Virus record (IMG/VR): IMGVR_UViG_3300045988_049372
Coordinates: 1 to 5,511 of that record
DNA: 5,511 nucleotides
Direction: 5' to 3' (one strand)
Source: a virus
The notes beneath the pieces were generated by a model. It was not told where the DNA came from. It was given only the letters and a program-made list of their open reading frames with translations, and made no database searches. Of the stretch, positions 1 to 5,511 are shown in pieces (the first letter of the stretch is position 1; each line of letters starts with the position of its first letter). The position numbers and the translations under genes are program-made.

Positions 1-398
1 GTCGCAGCATTTAAAAGCACGTCAGAATCTAACTTTTTTATAGTACCTTCACCAACACGCTGAGCAGTATCGGCCTGTTTTTGAGCAGCCTTAGCAGAAT
101 TGCCAGCAGCCTGCGAAGACATACCAGCAGTAACGCCTTCGCCTAAATTATACTGACTAGCAAGAGCAGAAGCACCATTTATAGAACCGCCAACACCTTG
201 CGTAGCAGCAAGCATAGGATTAAGTCCAGCCTTTTGCATATCTTCCATAGACCATTGATAACGATGCTGATAATTATACTGATTACGCTGATTAGCTACT
301 GTTGCAGCATGGCGGTCAGCAGAGTTAGAAAGAGCACCACCAATGATAGACGAAATGCCACCAGTAACAGCTCCAAGAGCAGAACCAAGAAATGACAT
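1..398 (-). CDS. VP2 minor capsid / DNA pilot protein, N-terminal part. The gene crosses the circular junction; its remainder is 5456..5057. Full gene is 798 nt, 265 aa.
   Basis: ATG at 398..396 on the minus strand is preceded by AAGGAG with a 9-nt spacer. Reverse-complement translation of 398..1 is an open frame with no stop: MSFLGSALGAVTGGISSIIGGALSNSADRHAATVANQRNQYNYQHRYQWSMEDMQKAGLNPMLAATQGVGG.... It is in frame with the track ORF 5057..5476 once position 1 is identified with 5457. Gly/Ala/Ser-rich N-terminus, the QRN..YN motifs and NPMLA are typical of gokushovirus VP2. It lies immediately downstream of VP1 after a 17-nt spacer. Confidence 0.6.
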   Translation of the reverse strand, partial: MSFLGSALGAVTGGISSIIGGALSNSADRHAATVANQRNQYNYQHRYQWSMEDMQKAGLNPMLAATQGVGGSINGASALASQYNLGEGVTAGMSSQAAGNSAKAAQKQADTAQRVGEGTIKKLDSDVLLNAA

Positions 399-415: not shown

Positions 416-2074
416 TTAGAAATGACCCATCATACCGGGTATACCATACATAGGCATAGGACGGATACACTTTAAATTAAACTTGACATCGAGCAGGAAA
501 TGAGGATAGGACGGAACAGCGACTACACGACTAATAGGCGGGTGGTCTTGTATAAACTCATCAGAAAGCGTAGGCAGCGTAGCAAATTTTTGCGATAAAT
601 GCCAAATATCAAGAGGTTCCTTATAAGTGCTCCGAAATTGACCAGTAATCAAAGACGGCTTATAGCGGTATTCAGCATAGCGCTCTTGGTAGCCAAATAC
701 TTTTTTATCATCAGCATTTCCTTGGCAATAAATCTCGATATTTTCTATGGCTTGTTCACCTAAATGCGCGAAAGACGGCCAATAAAAATCGAGCACATCA
801 GAACGCAGCCACATTTTATTTACTCCTTGCTGATAAGTCAAATCAGCACGAACGTTGATTAAGCCGATAATATAACCAAATTCCGAAAAAGATTTTGTAA
901 AGGCATGATAACGCTGGGCATTCAGACCATAAGCAGCTAAATTACCTTGTGGGGTTGTAGAGTCGGTAGAGCTTGTCTGAGTAACCGGGTTAATATTCAT
1001 CATACTAGAATGCGAGCCAAGGAATTCAGGACGTTGCAAACGAGCATCCGGATTAGTTACGCCGAAGTGTGCTTGAAGTTTTTCAGTGTACCTGGTGCCG
1101 CCGCGAGCGTCAGTCTCATAATAGCGTTGCAACATAAAAGCTTGACGAAGTGAATTAATAGTAACAGCAGTAACGCCAGACAAATCAGCATAAATATTAG
1201 GCGGAGTGCTAGCAGTAATAGAACCGGAATCTGAAGCATTGCTCAATGAGATAGCGCGACCAGCAGGCGCATTTGCAGCAATAAAAACGCCTTTATCATG
1301 GACTGTACCCAAAGCATCAACCCATGAAACACTTTCAATAGGAGTACCGGATGAAACACCAATACCAGCAACAGGAGCGTTACCGTTTAAAGGCAAGTCA
1401 ACAGCCGGACCTTTCTGAGGCCAAGGAAGAGCACCGGTGAAATAGTCATATCTTTTTCCACGCGGAGCCGGGTCATACCAATTACTTACGCCGGACGGAA
1501 AGCCATAATTAGGATTAGCGGTAGATTGACCCATTGGTTCCAAGACTGTACTAGATTCGCCTTTGCTAACCTTAACAGATTTCTGTAAGTTCTCATCTCT
1601 AAACCACTCGTTCCAAATGAGCCAGTACGAGCGGAACGGCAAGCAGTTAACGGAAACATTCTTAAAAGTACCGGAAGCACACGCGATACCCATATAATCG
1701 GGAAGCTTATTAGTCATATCGCCGGTTAGAGAAACAGTAGGTACAAGATAGTCCGTAGAATCTTCGGGATTTTCTTGCTCACCGCACAAATTAACCCATT
1801 TATCATATACGAGCCTACTGGGAACGAAGAAAAAGAAAGACTCAATATAGATGTTATCCATGAAAGGAACTACCGGAGTAGCCAAGCGGCAAAACTCAAC
1901 CGGATTTAAAGTAAACGTATCGCCTGGGATAACCTCATCCACGAAATAGGGAATCAGCTGGCCTTCGTTAAAAGTTGTCTTGTAAACATGACTTCTATCG
2001 AAAACAGAACGGCGAATATTAGCCTGCGGAATCATCGCAAAATGCGATTGATTTACACGAATATTACGAGCCAT
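416..2074 (-). CDS. Major capsid protein VP1 (Microviridae F-protein family), 552 aa.
   Basis: Complete ORF. N-terminal region has the gokushovirus VP1 signature: HFAMIPQANIRRSVFDRSHVYKTTFNEGQLIPYFVDEVIPGDTF...TPVVPFMDNIYIESFFFFVPSRLVYDKW. Size is typical of VP1 with the large insertion loop. AAGGAG RBS at 2091..2086. Confidence 0.93.
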   Translation of the reverse strand: MARNIRVNQSHFAMIPQANIRRSVFDRSHVYKTTFNEGQLIPYFVDEVIPGDTFTLNPVEFCRLATPVVPFMDNIYIESFFFFVPSRLVYDKWVNLCGEQENPEDSTDYLVPTVSLTGDMTNKLPDYMGIACASGTFKNVSVNCLPFRSYWLIWNEWFRDENLQKSVKVSKGESSTVLEPMGQSTANPNYGFPSGVSNWYDPAPRGKRYDYFTGALPWPQKGPAVDLPLNGNAPVAGIGVSSGTPIESVSWVDALGTVHDKGVFIAANAPAGRAISLSNASDSGSITASTPPNIYADLSGVTAVTINSLRQAFMLQRYYETDARGGTRYTEKLQAHFGVTNPDARLQRPEFLGSHSSMMNINPVTQTSSTDSTTPQGNLAAYGLNAQRYHAFTKSFSEFGYIIGLINVRADLTYQQGVNKMWLRSDVLDFYWPSFAHLGEQAIENIEIYCQGNADDKKVFGYQERYAEYRYKPSLITGQFRSTYKEPLDIWHLSQKFATLPTLSDEFIQDHPPISRVVAVPSYPHFLLDVKFNLKCIRPMPMYGIPGMMGHF

Positions 2075-2285: not shown

Positions 2286-2729
2286 TTATTTTTGCTCTAA
2301 TTTAGGCTCTCCTGCTACCGGAGTGACAGGTGCTACCGGAGTATCTACAATAGTCTTTGCTTTTAGGCCTAACTCCTCAAGTCTAGCAACAACCTTTTCG
2401 TCAGTAGATGTTAGAGCATCAAGCAGCATACGCGGGTCATTGCCAAATTCAGCGCGAACGCTGGAAGGCAAATCTGCAAACTCTGCGTTGACGTTAGCAA
2501 CGAGGTTGCAGGCCGTTTCATAGTCAGGCAGTAATGTAGTATCACCGTATTGCAGCGTAGCCGGGTCATGCGCTCCGACAGAATCAACAATGCCGGTAGT
2601 ATTAAAGTTAGCGATAATGTGATGAATGTCGCATTCTTCCGCGAAAGTTTGGTCAGCAAGCGAAGGCTGTGTAATTTCTACGTGCGGTTTTGGCGGTTGC
2701 TCATCATATAACGTAAAAAACTTAGCCAT
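2286..2729 (-). CDS. Putative internal scaffolding protein VP3 (gokushovirus VP3-like), 147 aa.
   Basis: Complete ORF with AAGGAG RBS 10 nt upstream of the ATG at 2729. Acidic protein, size typical of gokushovirus VP3. The motifs EECDIHHII, YGD and AEFADLPSSVRAEFGNDP resemble the conserved ECDINNII ... F..LP..R..F.NDP core of Chlamydia-phage-type scaffold proteins. This is from memory, not a search. Confidence 0.5.
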   Translation of the reverse strand: MAKFFTLYDEQPPKPHVEITQPSLADQTFAEECDIHHIIANFNTTGIVDSVGAHDPATLQYGDTTLLPDYETACNLVANVNAEFADLPSSVRAEFGNDPRMLLDALTSTDEKVVARLEELGLKAKTIVDTPVAPVTPVAGEPKLEQK

Positions 2730-2915: not shown

Positions 2916-3278
2916 TTAATTGCGTTGTGATATTACAACTTGCCTTGTTAGTATTATACCACAACATTGGAAAGCGGGCAAGCGTACCTTATGAGTACAT
3001 TTTAGCAGTCTCGGGGGGGGAGGAGTCAATAGTTCCGTGGCGGTAGAAAGCAACAAAGTGGGAGATTGCGGGGAAAACACGCATGTTTTATCGTCAAACT
3101 CACCAAGATACATAAGCACAAAGTCCTCGTGATAATCATGGATAATGTTAGAACGCTCCGGAGTAGAGGGCTGATTAACCATGATTTGGAATTGACGAAT
3201 AGCCATAGCGTTATTCTGCTGAGTAAAAGGCGGATTCATTAACTCGCCTTTTCTGTCGTAAATACAATAAAGTTTCAT
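2916..3278 (-). CDS. Hypothetical protein, second gene of the accessory cassette. 120 aa as read; the C-terminal roughly 50 aa are low complexity and span a G8/C8 tract.
   Basis: ATG at 3278 overlaps the upstream stop (ATGA) and is preceded by GAGGTGA with a 7-nt spacer. The N-terminal 65 aa (MKLYCIYDRKGELMNPPFTQQNNAMAIRQFQIMVNQPSTPERSNIIHDYHEDFVLMYLGEFDDKTC) look like a genuine globular protein. The remainder (SPQSPTLLLSTATELLTPPPPRLLKC...) reads like translated non-coding DNA and contains a promoter-like element. Confidence 0.5.
   Translation of the reverse strand: MKLYCIYDRKGELMNPPFTQQNNAMAIRQFQIMVNQPSTPERSNIIHDYHEDFVLMYLGEFDDKTCVFSPQSPTLLLSTATELLTPPPPRLLKCTHKVRLPAFQCCGIILTRQVVISQRN
2953..2981 (-). 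promoter_or_regulatory. Candidate sigma70 promoter for the VP3-VP1-VP2 block: -35 TTGCCC (2981..2976), 17-nt spacer, extended -10 TGgTATAAT (2961..2953). Predicted TSS is near 2946.
   Basis: Minus-strand reading is TTGCCCgctttccaatgttgTGGTATAAT. The -10 is perfect, with an upstream TG and exact 17-nt spacing. It lies inside the low-complexity 3' end of the 120-aa ORF, about 220 nt upstream of the VP3 ATG. Confidence 0.5.
3013..3020. repeat. G8 homopolymer (C8 on the coding strand, encoding PPPP) inside the 120-aa ORF.
   Basis: Read directly. It is the only long G/C homopolymer in this roughly 42% GC genome. A -1 change gives stop after ...TPPRDC. A +1 change gives stop after ...PPPPETAKMYS. 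Confidence 0.8.
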
Positions 3279-3580
3279 TTTTTAATCACCTCAAAAGAAC
3301 CTTTTTTAAGACAAGCGATAAACTCTTGCTTGGCCAAATACGGGAGAACAAAATAAAAAGAGTCGAACAGAAGAACTTGATTTTGAGAAACTAATTTAGA
3401 TTGAGCACAAGGACGAAGATAAATACCGTTAGGCATTTTACGAATCCAGGCACGAGCAGCGGAATAAGACATAAAAAAAGGATAGTCGTCAAGATAGCTC
3501 AAAGCGTCTTCAAAGAAATCTTTATTAGATTGATTCCGAAGGTCTAAAGCAAAAAATTTATCAGCGTAGTTTTTTAACAT
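3275..3580 (-). CDS. Hypothetical protein, first gene of the accessory cassette, 101 aa. The track's 3637 start is revised to the ATG at 3580.
   Basis: The ATG at 3580..3578 is preceded by GAGGTGA 5 nt upstream. It sits about 19 nt downstream of the predicted TSS of a perfect consensus promoter. The track's upstream ATG at 3637 lies between the -35 and -10 hexamers, so it cannot be the start. Protein: MLKNYADKFFALDLRNQSNKDFFEDALSYLDDYPFFMSYSAARAWIRKMPNGIYLRPCAQSKLVSQNQVLLFDSFYFVLPYLAKQEFIACLKKGSFEVIKK. No recognisable family. Confidence 0.6.
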   Translation of the reverse strand: MLKNYADKFFALDLRNQSNKDFFEDALSYLDDYPFFMSYSAARAWIRKMPNGIYLRPCAQSKLVSQNQVLLFDSFYFVLPYLAKQEFIACLKKGSFEVIKK

Positions 3581-3660: not shown

Positions 3661-4605
3661 TTATAAACCTAAATTATCAAAATCACGCTCGAATTGCTCC
3701 TGCCGGTGCTTCAAAATCTTTTCCTTGGCTTCCAATCTTTTGCAATCAATAACAGCAGCCTTTGCATTATCGGCCTTATTTTGCTTGTATATACTATACC
3801 AAACGGGATTACTACGCTCAAATAATGTTTGATAGTAACGAGGTATCTTATACTTAGCTCCGTTGATTGTTACAAAGCCAAGTTTAAAAATATCCTCAGA
3901 GTAACGACCGAAATAGTCTGCTCCAATGCCTGGCTTAAGAGAGCTGCCAACAAACTCCGGACTAATACCAAGAGCATCATACATAAAGGCATTTTTACCG
4001 GTCTGCTTTTTGAGAGAGTATTTAGCGACATACCGGGCCGACTCAAATGTGATAGCTCCGACAATATTATAACCATAAGGCCAAAGCTTCTCCAGCGTAG
4101 GAGAACGAAAGAGATTATAGCCAGCTGCTAACGCCGATACCTTCCGGACATCAGCAGGAAACCAACCAAAGCACAAAATATGATAATGTGGACGGCGATT
4201 GAGATCGCCATACTCACCGCAACACAGAAAACGAATTTTAGAACTGTCATGATAATCTAAATAGCGACGCAACCTCTTAAAAAATAGTTGCAAATGTTCA
4301 CGATGCAGCGAGCAATCTGCTGGAAGGCAATCATCATTATAAGTTAGCGTGATGAAGCAGTTATGCAAATGTAATTTAGCTTCGTGAACACAACGAATAG
4401 CCCAATCATTAGCTTTATCAAGACGGCAGCCAAGGCATTGACCGCAAGGAACGACAACAGCATAATTATTAGCTAACTCACTTTTAGCTATTTCCAGAGA
4501 TTTCCCGGATAAATCGCGATAAGAAACAAAATTAGAAAGCTCAAATTTGCCGTTAGCATTTGGAACGGCAGAGCGTTTAGCAAACATAGGATTTAGGCAA
4601 GTCAT
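3661..4605 (-). CDS. Replication initiation protein VP4. Rolling-circle HUH endonuclease of superfamily I, Microviridae gene A / VP4 type.
   Basis: RCR motif I CFITLTY, motif II RPHYHILCFGW (HxH) and motif III ARYVAKYSLKK (paired catalytic tyrosines Y..KY). N-terminal CxxC..C cluster VVVPCGQCLGCRLD is typical of gokushovirus VP4. Start is set at the ATG at 4605 (MTCLNPMF..., matching the common M.CL.P VP4 N-terminus). The track's 4617 start is a GTG with no SD. Confidence 0.9.
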   Translation of the reverse strand: MTCLNPMFAKRSAVPNANGKFELSNFVSYRDLSGKSLEIAKSELANNYAVVVPCGQCLGCRLDKANDWAIRCVHEAKLHLHNCFITLTYNDDCLPADCSLHREHLQLFFKRLRRYLDYHDSSKIRFLCCGEYGDLNRRPHYHILCFGWFPADVRKVSALAAGYNLFRSPTLEKLWPYGYNIVGAITFESARYVAKYSLKKQTGKNAFMYDALGISPEFVGSSLKPGIGADYFGRYSEDIFKLGFVTINGAKYKIPRYYQTLFERSNPVWYSIYKQNKADNAKAAVIDCKRLEAKEKILKHRQEQFERDFDNLGL

Positions 4606-4623
4606 AATATCACACACTTTCTG

Positions 4624-4737
4624 TTACATGCGGATACCGCCGCGCATGTTGCGAGATTTAAGATTTTTGAGCCGTGGCACGGCATGGTTACGAAAGTTCC
4701 GGCGCGAAGCTCCGCGAGAAATTCTAGTTCTTTTCAT
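4624..4737 (-). CDS. Small arginine-rich DNA-binding protein, 37 aa. Gokushovirus ORF8-like; functional analogue of phiX174 J.
   Basis: It is below the 60-aa cut-off, so it is not in the ORF track. The ATG at 4737 is preceded by AAGGAG with an 8-nt spacer; the TAA stop is at 4626..4624. Protein: MKRTRISRGASRRNFRNHAVPRLKNLKSRNMRGGIRM. About 30% Arg/Lys. The C-terminal MRGGIR motif matches my recollection of the Chlamydia-phage ORF8 C-terminus (...IMRGGIRF). Confidence 0.65.
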   Translation of the reverse strand: MKRTRISRGASRRNFRNHAVPRLKNLKSRNMRGGIRM

Positions 4738-4775: not shown

Positions 4776-5045
4776 TTAATTATTTTTTCCCAAAAAGCGG
4801 GAGTAACTTTTTTCTTCCGTCGCTGCTGCTGCCGCGTGGCGAAAGCCATTTACATCGTCGCTACCTCTTTTCTGCATATTAACAAGATCATCTTGCATAG
4901 CAAGCGAGATAGCTTTAAGGCTTGCGCTACCTTCACGATCGTATTTGCCAGTACGAAACATATCAATAAAATCAACAACCTCTTGAATGAAAGGAATAAC
5001 GGTAGATACGAGAAAAGTCAAAATAGCAGTAGTTTTGTTTGACAT
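4776..5045 (-). CDS. Hypothetical 89-aa protein with an N-terminal hydrophobic, putatively transmembrane helix. Candidate membrane or lysis protein.
   Basis: The ATG at 5045 is preceded by GAGGTGA with a 6-nt spacer; the VP2 stop TGA is embedded in this RBS. Residues 6-22 (TAILTFLVSTVIPFIQEVV) are hydrophobic, followed by a charged soluble tail. No family recognised. Confidence 0.55.
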   Translation of the reverse strand: MSNKTTAILTFLVSTVIPFIQEVVDFIDMFRTGKYDREGSASLKAISLAMQDDLVNMQKRGSDDVNGFRHAAAAATEEKSYSRFLGKNN

Positions 5046-5056
5046 AATTAATCACC

Positions 5057-5511
5057 TCATTTAGAAAAATAATTAGCAATACCGGAAAACAAACGATTAG
5101 CAGCACGGGCGACAGTATTCCAAGGCAGACCGTCATTGGAAAGACCAAGATTTTTGTAATCCTTATTGCGAGAAACCTTATAATCATAATCTGCAGCAGC
5201 AACATCAGTCAGCTGGGAATTGTAAGCAGCGGAACTATTAGCAGCATTGCCCTGAGCAATCATCATGTTAGCTTGGGCAGGCATAACTACACTACGCTGA
5301 TAAAGAGCATTTTGAGTTTGCTCATCAATTAGCTGACCTTGCTTTTCAGCATTGCGTAAATTCTGTTTATACAATGCGACATTATCAGCATAAGTATCGG
5401 CAGCCAACTTATTAGCAATAGTTTTTCCAGCAGCTTCAGCTTCAAAGTTTTTCGAAGTCGCAGCATTTAAAAGCACGTCAGAATCTAACTTTTTTATAGT
5501 ACCTTCACCAA
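5057..5511 (-). CDS. VP2 minor capsid / DNA pilot protein, C-terminal part (same gene as 1..398). Bases 5457..5511 duplicate 1..55.
   Basis: The track ORF 5057..5476 begins at an internal GTG. The frame stays open upstream to the window edge and is in phase with 398..1 across the junction. The C-terminal region is rich in A/N/Q with a predicted coiled-coil-like stretch (KQNLRNAEKQGQLIDEQTQNALYQ), as in other VP2 proteins. Confidence 0.6.
   Translation of the reverse strand, partial: GEGTIKKLDSDVLLNAATSKNFEAEAAGKTIANKLAADTYADNVALYKQNLRNAEKQGQLIDEQTQNALYQRSVVMPAQANMMIAQGNAANSSAAYNSQLTDVAAADYDYKVSRNKDYKNLGLSNDGLPWNTVARAANRLFSGIANYFSK
5457..5511. repeat. 55-nt exact terminal direct repeat (identical to 1..55). 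This is the circular-genome overlap. Unit genome length is 5456 nt.
   Basis: gtcgcagcatttaaaagcacgtcagaatctaacttttttatagtaccttcaccaa is present at both ends. Position 5456 (a) differs from anything preceding position 1, so the overlap is exactly 55 nt. Confidence 0.95.

What the first reader, a model, noticed from the sequence alone, without database searches (positions are those of the whole stretch)
4776..5045. 89-aa protein with an N-terminal hydrophobic helix downstream of VP2: candidate single-gene lysis or membrane-targeting protein
Gokushovirus-like phages lack a phiX174 E homologue, and their lysis mechanism is mostly unknown. This gene is tightly coupled to VP2: the VP2 stop lies inside its GAGGTGA RBS. 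It encodes one hydrophobic helix plus a charged tail, which is the architecture of small phage lysis effectors (amurins/Sgl) and also of superinfection-exclusion proteins. It does not look like a scaffold protein.
Basis: inference. Interest (0 to 1): 0.6.

Follow-up and report, generated by a model that had tools for sequence, protein, structure and literature searches.

The report
Conserved small hydrophobic-helix gokushovirus accessory protein
This is a real, strongly conserved 89-residue gene of a gut gokushovirus that has a membrane-type N-terminal helix and matches no known protein family; it is a reasonable but unproven candidate for the long-missing lysis gene of these phages.

Summary
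An 89-codon ORF lies on the minus strand at 5045..4776, directly after VP2. A GAGGTGA Shine-Dalgarno overlaps the VP2 stop codon. The window is a complete circular gokushovirus genome. The ORF is a genuine gene: it is intact in all 85 related genomes I fetched, and the order VP2–ORF–J-like–VP4 is conserved. dN/dS is about 0.15 overall and 0.004–0.04 in the hydrophobic segment. Its first 27 residues are as conserved as the best parts of the capsid protein. The family is narrow: PHROG 23638 (unknown function) and 27 clusters among 1.84 billion proteins, all on ~5 kb contigs, the annotated records being from mammalian faeces. It has no homology to phiX174 E or K, MS2 L, holins, defence proteins, this phage's own proteins or any solved structure. 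Architecture: a basic N-terminus, a 16-residue hydrophobic core, an acidic amphipathic extension, a second helix, a variable disordered linker and a conserved C-terminal SRF(L/F) motif. Function is not established. The lysis reading is plausible: no other lysis gene is present, and an endolysin-type peptidase fills the same slot in a related phage. Against it, hydrophobicity is only moderate, the tail is neutral rather than basic, expression looks strong and unrestrained, and many gokushoviruses lack the gene. I put a lysis role at about 0.35.

The parts
4776..5045 (-). ORF89 coding sequence (89 aa plus stop). Member of PHROG 23638 (unknown function).
   Evidence: ORF. (phrog_23638, E=2e-14). 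(89 database homologues; 248 viral contigs). (intact in 84/84 loci). (dN/dS 0.14-0.16).
5052..5058 (-). Shine-Dalgarno GAGGTGA, 6 nt upstream of the ATG. It overlaps the VP2 stop codon (5057..5059) by 2 nt.
   Evidence: An SD-like motif and a VP2-stop/ATG gap of -8..+18 nt are conserved in 82/86 genomes. No sequestering RNA structure (z=-0.17).
4986..5033 (-). Residues 5-20 (TTAILTFLVSTVIPFI): hydrophobic core with invariant P18. Candidate transmembrane segment.
   Evidence: KD19 maximum 1.78-2.07 across the family. dN/dS 0.004 (89-aa clade) and 0.04 (79-aa clade) at dS 0.4-0.8. Invariant residues are spread all round the helix.
4950..4985 (-). Residues 21-32 (QEVVDFIDMFRT): acidic amphipathic continuation of helix 1. 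Q21, E22 and D25 are invariant.
   Evidence: Hydrophobic moment 1.6-2.1. Polar residues cluster on one face, R=0.62. Invariant columns. The flank carries a net charge of -1 to -2 in 13 of 14 representatives tabulated; P0106 is +1.
4863..4937 (-). Residues 37-61: predicted second helix, moderately conserved (L43, D53, L54).
   Evidence: AlphaFold2 helix 37-61, pLDDT about 70-77. Conservation.
4812..4862 (-). Residues 62-78: variable, indel-rich, predicted disordered linker.
   Evidence: pLDDT below 50 for residues 63-78. Indels and low conservation in the alignments. dN/dS 0.23-0.31 for residues 34-78.
4788..4811 (-). Residues 79-86 (KSYSRFLG): conserved C-terminal motif (S/R)RF(L/F/I/W), followed by a short polar or basic end.
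   Evidence: S82, R83 and F84 are invariant. The motif is kept in the most divergent members although synonymous sites are saturated between clades (pS 0.66).
5057..5511 (-). 3' part of VP2 (DNA pilot protein). The gene starts at 398 and wraps across the circular junction (398..1, then on to 5057; 265 aa).
   Evidence: Synteny with annotated VP2.
4624..4737 (-). Arg/Lys-rich 37-aa J/VP8-like DNA-binding protein gene, immediately downstream (38-nt gap here; a 4-nt overlap in the 79-aa clade).
   Evidence: phrog_10695.. (distance -4 in 66 genomes, +38 or +39 in 17).

Best explanation
ORF89 is a lineage-specific accessory protein of a clade of mammalian-gut gokushoviruses. I propose that it is a small single-pass membrane protein acting as the phage's non-enzymatic lysis effector, working like a single-gene-lysis 'protein antibiotic'.

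Proposed mechanism:
1. It is made from the VP2-ORF89-J gene block using a strong Shine-Dalgarno.
2. It inserts into the host cytoplasmic membrane through residues 5-20. The conserved charge asymmetry weakly favours N-in/C-out.
3. The almost invariant helix docks onto a conserved host envelope-biogenesis or membrane component.
4. The acidic juxtamembrane helix and the C-terminal SRF(L/F) peptide, held on a flexible linker, supply further contacts.
5. The cell wall fails without any phage muralytic enzyme.

Shown: gene reality, conservation pattern, architecture, synteny, and absence of any known homologue or endolysin.

Inferred: membrane insertion, topology, the existence of a host target, and lysis itself.
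For: 1. It is a real, strongly selected gene. It is intact in all 84 genomes of the first set. dN/dS is 0.14-0.16 overall and 0.004-0.04 in the hydrophobic core, with dS of 0.4-0.8, so the constraint acts on amino acids and not on nucleotides.
2. The N-terminal 27 residues are 22/27 identical between clades whose VP1 is 53% identical. The best VP4 window, which includes the catalytic HUH motif, is only 17/27. This points to a specific and slowly evolving partner rather than a generic anchor.
3. The hydrophobic segment passes the classical KD threshold in 16 of the 17 members scored (P0106 is 1.58). Its flanking charges are nearly always +1 on the N side and -1 to -2 on the C side.
4. It meets two of the three Sgl-candidate nomination criteria of PMC7693330 (length and a Shine-Dalgarno); the third, a predicted TMD, is only suggested by hydropathy.
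5. The genome encodes no endolysin, peptidase or E homologue. Gokushoviruses have no known lysis gene (PMC7062461).
6. In a related gokushovirus (PQ007005, and PQ006262/PQ007286) the same VP2-X-J-VP4 slot holds a Peptidase_M15_3 that is 40-43% identical to annotated endolysins. Another relative has an unrelated 42-aa N-terminal-TM protein coupled to the VP2 stop. Lysis-associated accessory genes lie between VP1 and VP4 in other microvirus families (PMC9239249).
7. No ORF89-bearing genome carries a peptidase.
Against: 1. Hydrophobicity is only moderate. The core is about 16 residues and contains 5 Ser/Thr and a Pro. No dedicated TM predictor was available.
2. The tail is net neutral, unlike the basic tails of E and L.
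3. The RBS is as strong as that of VP5 and is not sequestered. E and L are translated sparingly.
4. The gene is absent from most gokushoviruses, including some at the same VP1 distance with 4.1-4.8 kb genomes that hold only core genes. Lysis in the subfamily therefore does not generally need it.
5. Peptidases also occur in the other accessory slot (VP4 to VP5), and most sampled slots are empty. The positional argument is weak.
6. A rival hydrophobic ORF embedded in VP4 in the +1 frame persists in this lineage and coincides with a dip in VP4 synonymous diversity.
7. Base rate: most small TMD-bearing Sgl candidates were not lytic when tested (PMC7693330).
Confidence: 0.35

Rival explanations
1. 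Superinfection-exclusion or entry-blocking membrane protein. The helix sits in the membrane of the infected cell and blocks DNA delivery by incoming related phages, for example by engaging the VP2 conduit or its host receptor or channel.
For: It has a small N-terminal-anchor architecture and is strongly and constitutively expressed from an unsequestered SD. It is tightly linked to VP2, the DNA pilot gene. It is an accessory, lineage-restricted gene, as exclusion genes usually are. The extreme conservation of the helix could reflect binding to a conserved part of VP2.
Against: No match to any PADLOC defence or exclusion model or to any other family. These phages show no sign of lysogeny: no prophage copy was found among 185,579 species genomes, only a free 5.5-kb contig. 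Retention in 100% of genomes with dN/dS as low as 0.004 is unusually strict for an exclusion gene.
Confidence: 0.2
2. VP2-associated assembly or piloting cofactor. The protein is co-produced with VP2 and binds it, or the capsid interior. It would chaperone the hydrophobic N-terminus of VP2, help load VP2 into procapsids, or act with it during DNA delivery.
For: The position immediately after the VP2 stop is conserved in 82/86 genomes. Invariant residues lie all round the hydrophobic helix, which suggests burial in a protein complex rather than exposure to lipid. VP2 C-termini and the ORF89 C-terminus both end in aromatic + G/S + basic motifs (a loose resemblance).
Against: No homology to any structural or scaffold protein. 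VP2 itself diverges fast (32-45% identity between clades) while the ORF89 helix barely changes. Gokushoviruses with similar VP2 proteins manage without the gene. No such component is described in the gokushovirus papers consulted here; I did not read the virion-structure papers themselves.
Confidence: 0.15
3. Not a membrane protein. It is a soluble helical-hairpin oligomer whose hydrophobic helix forms a bundle core, with a regulatory or host-takeover role mediated by the C-terminal SRF(L/F) peptide.
For: AlphaFold2 predicts a helix-turn-helix hairpin (3-32, 37-61). The hydrophobic core is short and rich in Ser/Thr. All-round conservation of the helix fits a buried core. The disordered linker plus a conserved terminal peptide is typical of docking motifs.
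Against: The model is of moderate or low confidence (pLDDT 67, pTM 0.42). The core 5-20 is uniformly hydrophobic rather than amphipathic (muH 0.98 against mean H 1.98; no facial clustering), which is unusual for a soluble 89-residue protein. The flank-charge asymmetry is conserved.
Confidence: 0.1

Closest known systems
phiX174 protein E (Bullavirinae single-gene lysis protein, MraY inhibitor)
   Same: It is a microvirus-encoded protein of almost the same size (89 vs 91 aa). It has an N-terminal hydrophobic helix containing a conserved proline (P18 vs P21). The helix is the most conserved part and the rest is much more variable. No muralytic enzyme is encoded in the genome.
   Different: No sequence or profile similarity (hhalign probability 0.2%; no Pfam hit). 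ORF89 is a stand-alone gene, not overprinted inside another gene. The helix is much less hydrophobic (KD 1.78 vs 2.79). The tail is neutral rather than strongly basic (0 vs +11). The SD is strong and unsequestered. Flank charges suggest the opposite topology. ORF89 also has a conserved C-terminal motif.
Levivirus Sgl proteins such as MS2 L, and the metagenomic Sgl candidates of PMC7693330
   Same: It is a small orphan protein that meets two of their three operational criteria (at least 25 codons and an SD); the third, a TMD, is only suggested by hydropathy. Its hydrophobicity is similar to that of the L transmembrane segment (KD 1.78 vs 1.74). It is lineage-restricted and has no homologues elsewhere.
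   Different: It is a DNA-phage gene that does not overlap a neighbouring gene. The hydrophobic segment is N-terminal, whereas in L it is C-terminal. The tail is neutral. The family is far more conserved than typical Sgls, which evolve rapidly (vs PMC7693330).
Peptidase_M15_3 endolysin-type accessory genes of gokushoviruses (e.g. PQ007005)
   Same: They occupy the identical genomic slot (VP2 - X - J-like - VP4). In the sample examined, they never occur together with ORF89.
   Different: They are a completely different protein: an enzyme of 138 aa with no hydrophobic helix. These peptidases also occur in a second accessory slot.
Single-TMD holins / N-terminally anchored phage membrane proteins (class III holins, Sie-type proteins)
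   Same: One N-terminal hydrophobic helix, a weakly predicted N-in/C-out orientation, and a charged extramembrane part.
   Different: No partner endolysin gene. No homology to any holin family in Pfam, NCBIfam or PHROGs, or to PADLOC models. It is much smaller than T4 T or the lactococcal Sie proteins (the size comparison rests on my own knowledge).

Membership tests
PHROG 23638 (phage protein family of unknown function) | Significant full-length match to the family profile | tested here: met
   E=2e-14, residues 1-86 against profile positions 1-73 of 79.
phiX174 E / Microvirus lysis protein family | Sequence or profile homology to protein E | tested here: not met
   No Pfam hit at E<=1 for any of 26 members. 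hhalign probability 0.2%.
phiX174 E / Microvirus lysis protein family | N-terminal transmembrane helix with an essential conserved proline | tested here: inconclusive
   P18 is invariant within the hydrophobic segment. The segment is only moderately hydrophobic (KD 1.78 vs 2.79), and membrane insertion has not been shown.
phiX174 E / Microvirus lysis protein family | Basic C-terminal domain; gene overprinted within another gene and weakly translated | tested here: not met
   Net charge 0 vs +11. Stand-alone ORF. Strong GAGGTGA SD, not sequestered.
phiX174 E / Microvirus lysis protein family | Inhibition of MraY, causing lysis of growing cells | not testable with these tools
   Needs expression and suppressor genetics.
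Operational Sgl candidate (criteria of Chamakura et al. 2020, PMC7693330) | ORF of at least 25 codons with a legitimate Shine-Dalgarno | tested here: met
   89 codons; GAGGTGA 6 nt upstream of the ATG; conserved across the family.
Operational Sgl candidate (criteria of Chamakura et al. 2020, PMC7693330) | Predicted transmembrane domain (TMHMM) | tested here: inconclusive
   TMHMM was not available. KD19 maximum is 1.78-2.07, above the 1.6 threshold in all scored members but one (1.58). A simple Hessa-scale sum is unfavourable (+4 to +5), close to MS2 L (+3.4).
Operational Sgl candidate (criteria of Chamakura et al. 2020, PMC7693330) | Lysis or growth arrest on induced expression | not testable with these tools
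   Experimental. The base rate in that study was 33 functional of 293 candidates.
Canonical holin (holin-endolysin system) | Adjacent or co-encoded endolysin | tested here: not met
   No peptidase or endolysin domain in the window. No tblastn hit at E<=0.1 in any of the 86 ORF89-bearing genomes (best hit E=0.40, 39 aa).
Canonical holin (holin-endolysin system) | Homology to a described holin family | tested here: not met
   No Pfam, NCBIfam or PHROG holin match.
Microvirus structural/scaffold proteins (VP1, VP2, VP3, VP5, J/VP8) | Profile homology to any of this phage's structural or assembly proteins | tested here: not met
   hhalign probabilities of 0.1-0.2% against VP1, VP2, VP3, VP4, VP5 and J. 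No solved-structure relative.
Known anti-phage defence / exclusion proteins (PADLOC-DB) | Match to a defence-system model | tested here: not met
   No family for the window protein. Only 2 of 26 members give a chance-level hit (E=0.015).

The most novel reading that the evidence does not exclude
ORF89 is the first dedicated, non-enzymatic lysis effector identified in Gokushovirinae. It would be a new, sequence-orphan 'protein antibiotic'. Its near-invariant helix would bind a conserved envelope-biogenesis target in the predicted Clostridiales (Gram-positive) hosts. That would make it the first single-gene lysis protein from a phage of Gram-positive bacteria.
Probability: 0.3. Interest if true: 0.8.

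Novelty: new variant of a known kind. Interest (0 to 1): 0.5.

Why it matters
How gokushoviruses lyse their hosts has been an open question since the first genomes. They are among the most abundant phages in animal guts and in many environments, yet they have no E homologue and mostly no endolysin. Every single-gene lysis protein solved so far has pointed to a druggable step of cell-wall synthesis (MraY, MurA, MurJ). This family gives a concrete, cheap test: an 89-codon gene with clear mutational targets (P18, E22/D25, S82-R83-F84). If it is lytic, suppressor mapping could reveal a target, possibly in Gram-positive anaerobes. If it is not lytic, the extreme conservation of the helix still marks an unknown, essential-looking interaction in a dominant group of gut phages.

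Tried and rejected
1. Homology to known families: Pfam, NCBIfam, PADLOC, PDB sequence profiles, and hhalign against E, K, L and all of the phage's own proteins. Nothing significant. The best PDB sequence hit was the hydrophobic N-terminal helix of a geopilin at E=0.84, which I rejected as chance.
2. Fold search of the AlphaFold2 model against BFVD and the PDB: only generic helical hairpins, none with E<0.001.
3. Host identification through prophages: one scan of 185,579 species genomes found a single free 5.5-kb contig binned into a Clostridiales MAG. This is weak evidence, used only alongside the SD usage and PMC10159846.
4. RNA-structure control of translation, as in MS2 L: no structure (z=-0.17). 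Promoter and terminator scans were at chance level.
5. The idea that invariant residues line one face of the helix (pore lining): rejected. Invariant residues are not clustered (8858/20000 random subsets do as well). Only the 21-32 stretch is amphipathic.
6. 'Guilt by position': partly rejected. A peptidase sits in the same slot in one small group (PQ007005, PQ006262, PQ007286), but peptidases also sit in the VP4-VP5 slot, and most of the 15 genomes fetched outside this family (16 fetched in all) have an empty slot.
7. Search for close relatives of the slot peptidase in IMG/VR: none found.
8. Alt-frame hydrophobic ORFs as rival lysis genes: most are not conserved. They are expected by-products of 44-49% T at third codon positions, and the VP4 +1 stretch is open in 30% of synonymous shuffles. 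The VP4-embedded ORF remains ambiguous.
9. Resemblance of the C-terminal motif to MinD or FtsZ C-terminal peptides and to VP2 C-termini: recalled from memory or seen only loosely. Not testable here and not used as evidence.

Full report
**1. What the window is**

All substantial ORFs lie on the minus strand and give a full gokushovirus gene set:
- VP1, 2074..416 (Phage_F, E=2e-174).
- VP3, 2729..2286 (Chlamy_scaf).
- VP5, 3278..2916 (Phage_ORF5).
- VP4, 4617..3661 (replication initiator).
- An Arg-rich 37-aa J/VP8-like protein, 4737..4624.
- VP2.

The window begins and ends with the same 55 nt. It is therefore a circularly assembled genome of about 5456 nt. VP2 (265 aa) starts at 398, runs off the left end and continues from the right end down to its TGA at 5059..5057. 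GC content is 41.6%.

**2. The observation**

- The ORF is exactly at 4776..5045, on the minus strand.
- The sequence AAA-TGA-GGTGATTAATT-ATG places GAGGTGA (5058..5052) across the last two bases of the VP2 stop and 6 nt before the ATG.
- The hydrophobic segment is residues 5-20 (TTAILTFLVSTVIPFI). Its Kyte-Doolittle 19-residue maximum is 1.78. This is above the classical 1.6 cut-off, equal to the MS2 L membrane segment (1.74) and far below phiX174 E (2.79).
- The remainder is charged but net neutral (11 basic, 11 acidic), unlike E (+11) or L (+6).

The helix is only moderately hydrophobic, and the tail is not basic.

**3. It is a real gene under strong selection**

- The big protein database holds 89 homologues. 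Those that carry a name are all called 'hypothetical protein' (most carry none), and all but one sit on contigs of about 6 kb or less.
- 248 IMG/VR contigs encode a relative.
- 20 GenBank microvirus records from human, pig, monkey, dog and mink faeces contain it, mostly unannotated.
- In 84 of 84 genomes the reading frame is intact. Members fall into an 89-aa clade and a 79-aa clade.
- Nei-Gojobori estimates give dN/dS of 0.14-0.16 overall. Values are 0.004 (89-aa clade) and 0.04 (79-aa clade) for residues 5-20, 0.05-0.06 for residues 21-33, and 0.23-0.31 for the middle. Synonymous divergence is high (dS 0.4-1.0) over the N-terminal part, so the conservation is at the protein level and not due to an overlapping nucleotide element.
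- Gene order VP2-ORF-J-VP4 is conserved.
- The ATG lies within -8..+18 nt of the VP2 stop in 82 of 86 genomes, always behind an SD-like motif. The J-like gene follows at -4 nt in 66 of 86 genomes and at +38 or +39 nt in 17 more.

**4. Anatomy of the family**

An exhaustive profile search of 1.84 billion representative proteins finds only 27 clusters. The most divergent members keep the same skeleton:
- N-terminus: M-x-x-K-(T/V)-(T/S)-x-I-L-(T/A)-F-…-P-F-(I/V)-(Q/R)-(E/D)-x-x-D.
- A moderately conserved second segment.
- A variable, indel-rich linker.
- A C-terminal (S/R)-R-F-(L/F/I/W), followed by a few polar or basic residues.

AlphaFold2 gives helix 3-32, helix 37-61 and a disordered 63-78, at mean pLDDT 67 and pTM 0.42. 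Residues 21-32 form an acidic amphipathic stretch: E22, D25 and D28 lie on one face, with resultant 0.62. The core 5-20 is uniformly hydrophobic. Contrary to my first impression, its invariant residues are spread all round the helix.

Flank charges are conserved in nearly all of the 14 representatives tabulated: +1 before the core (0 in two) and -1 to -2 in the 15 residues after it (+1 in one). By the positive-inside rule this weakly favours N-in/C-out. That is inference only.

The first 27 residues are 22/27 identical between clades whose VP1 is 53% identical. No 27-residue window of VP4 (best 17/27, over the HUH motif), VP2 (21/27), VP3 or VP5 does as well. Only a few per cent of VP1 windows do. 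A generic membrane anchor would not be held this tightly, so the helix very probably makes a specific contact.

**5. What it is not**

There is no significant similarity to:
- any Pfam, NCBIfam or PADLOC model;
- any PDB sequence;
- phiX174 E or K, or MS2 L;
- this phage's VP1-VP5 and J proteins.

Fold searches gave only generic helical hairpins. The only family membership is PHROG 23638, of unknown function.

**6. Context bearing on function**

Literature:
- Gokushovirus genomes lack a peptidoglycan-synthesis inhibitor, and some have acquired peptidases (PMC7062461).
- Lysis-associated accessory genes sit between VP1 and VP4 in several other microvirus families. Overprinted genes were not assessed in that study (PMC9239249).
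- Gut gokushoviruses are predicted from CRISPR spacers to infect Clostridiales (PMC10159846).

Host. Every gene here except VP4 has a strong SD. On my own knowledge that Bacteroidetes make little use of Shine-Dalgarno sites, this argues against a Bacteroidetes host. The only hit in 185,579 species genomes is a free contig binned with a Clostridiales MAG. The host is thus probably a Firmicute, with low confidence.

Slot comparison. I examined 16 gokushoviruses with 26-67% VP1 identity to the window. The VP2 to J/VP4 slot held the following:
- A Peptidase_M15_3 in PQ007005, and also in PQ006262 and PQ007286. It is 40-43% identical to annotated endolysins of dsDNA phages.
- An unrelated 42-aa N-terminal-TM protein overlapping the VP2 stop, in PP511673.
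- A non-hydrophobic 81-aa protein, in OQ686905.
- A divergent ORF89-family member plus an extra 37-aa hydrophobic ORF, in KT264820.
- Only the J-like gene, or nothing, in the others.

Peptidases also occur in the VP4 to VP5 slot. No ORF89-bearing genome has a peptidase. The position is therefore compatible with a lysis function, but it is really a general accessory-gene slot.

**7. Arguments against an E-like lysis protein**

- There is no RNA structure around the start codon (z=-0.17).
- The SD is identical to that of VP5. The protein should therefore be made abundantly, whereas E and L are throttled.
- The tail is neutral and the hydrophobic core is short.
- Phages at the same capsid distance, with 4.1-4.8 kb genomes, lack the gene. 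Gokushovirus lysis in general must rest on something else.
- In the only large functional screen of such candidates, 33 of 293 were active, and 178 TMD-bearing ORFs did nothing in E. coli (PMC7693330).

**8. A rival lysis candidate in the same genome**

Many alt-frame hydrophobic ORFs exist because third codon positions are 44-49% T. Most are not conserved.

One is harder to dismiss. It lies at 4250..4128, in the +1 frame inside VP4, and encodes 40 aa: MTVLKFVFCVAVSMAISIAVHIIIFCALVGFLLMSGRYRR.
- It keeps an ATG and an open frame in 13 of the 13 close relatives that aligned over its full length (of 18).
- It has positional equivalents in the distant L003, L019 and the 79-aa clade.
- It coincides with a dip in VP4 synonymous diversity (0.25-0.27 against 0.38-0.48 in the flanks).

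However, the stretch is open in 30% of synonymous shuffles. Outside this lineage the +1 frame is open but is not consistently hydrophobic or ATG-initiated. It remains unresolved. It is relevant because more than half of the functional ssRNA-phage Sgls are +1-frame ORFs inside rep.

**9. Verdict**

The gene is real, strongly constrained and architecturally distinctive, and it belongs to no characterised family.

My best single explanation is a small membrane-inserted effector whose invariant helix binds a conserved partner and brings about lysis without a muralytic enzyme. I give this about 0.35.

The rivals are:
- a superinfection or entry blocker (0.2);
- a VP2-associated assembly or piloting cofactor (0.15);
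- a soluble oligomer with a docking peptide (0.1).

The rest is unassigned.

The finding does not overturn anything known. It does supply a concrete, cheaply testable candidate for an old open question, which justifies a middling interest score.

Noticed in passing
window 1-55 and 5457-5511: There is an exact 55-nt terminal direct repeat. The window is a circularly assembled complete genome of about 5456 nt, and VP2 (265 aa) spans the junction.
   Followed up: yes
window 4128-4250, minus strand (+1 frame inside VP4): A 40-aa strongly hydrophobic ORF with a basic end (MTVLKF...SGRYRR) is embedded over the GEYG...PHYH motif of VP4. It is open with an ATG in 13 of the 13 close relatives that aligned over its full length (of 18), has positional equivalents in distant family genomes, and coincides with a dip in VP4 synonymous diversity. 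However, it is open in 30% of synonymous shuffles and is not consistently hydrophobic outside the lineage. It could be an overprinted gene (a rival lysis candidate), a codon-usage by-product, or a replication origin inside VP4.
   Followed up: partly
window 3275-3580, minus strand: There is a 101-aa ORF between VP4 and VP5. Its likely true start is M20 of the listed 120-aa ORF, behind GTGAGGTGA. It has no PHROG or Pfam match. Homologues occur in only 2 of 85 related genomes (L011 at 54% identity; L010 partial). This makes it a second, highly variable accessory gene of unknown function.
   Followed up: partly
L091 (PP511673.1) 2547-2675; L085 (KT264820.1) 2526-2639: Unrelated small N-terminal-TM ORFs sit directly after VP2 in other gokushoviruses. 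One is a 42-aa protein overlapping the VP2 stop (MMDILFLVIACIPAFIVLRFFWY...). The other is a 37-aa hydrophobic ORF that precedes the ORF89-family member in the mink virus.
   Followed up: no
L089 (PQ007005.1) 2561-2977; L095 (PP511414.1) 4107-4502; L098 (MG945383.1) 1777-2166: Endolysin-type M15 peptidases occur in two different accessory slots of gokushovirus genomes: VP2 to J/VP4, and VP4/J to VP5. The L089 enzyme has no obvious signal sequence and no neighbouring small TM gene, so how it reaches the wall is unclear.
   Followed up: partly
window 5057-5095 (VP2 C-terminus) and 4788-4811 (ORF89 C-terminus); same regions in L001, L002, L010, L016, L037: VP2 C-termini (RLFSGIANYFSK, GRYFGRRYKNYV, GIGYLFK, KKIYFGR) and ORF89-family C-termini (SRFLGKNN, SRFFGSWRDAK) all end in an aromatic/hydrophobic + G/S + basic pattern. 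The resemblance is loose and may be chance. It could also reflect a shared docking site or binding at the membrane interface.
   Followed up: no
window 4788-4811 and equivalent codons in the 79-aa clade: Synonymous divergence drops at the last conserved codons of the ORF (dS 0.23 and 0.05, against 0.3-0.8 elsewhere). In the 79-aa clade this is probably because the SD and ATG of the J-like gene lie inside the ORF's 3' end (4-nt overlap).
   Followed up: partly
proteins P0095, P0107 (database entries): Some database 'homologues' are chimeras. The conserved N-terminal helix is joined to ...DRKSTRLNSSH..., a recurrent assembly or adaptor-type artefact sequence (my own recollection). They should not be read as domain fusions.
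   Followed up: no
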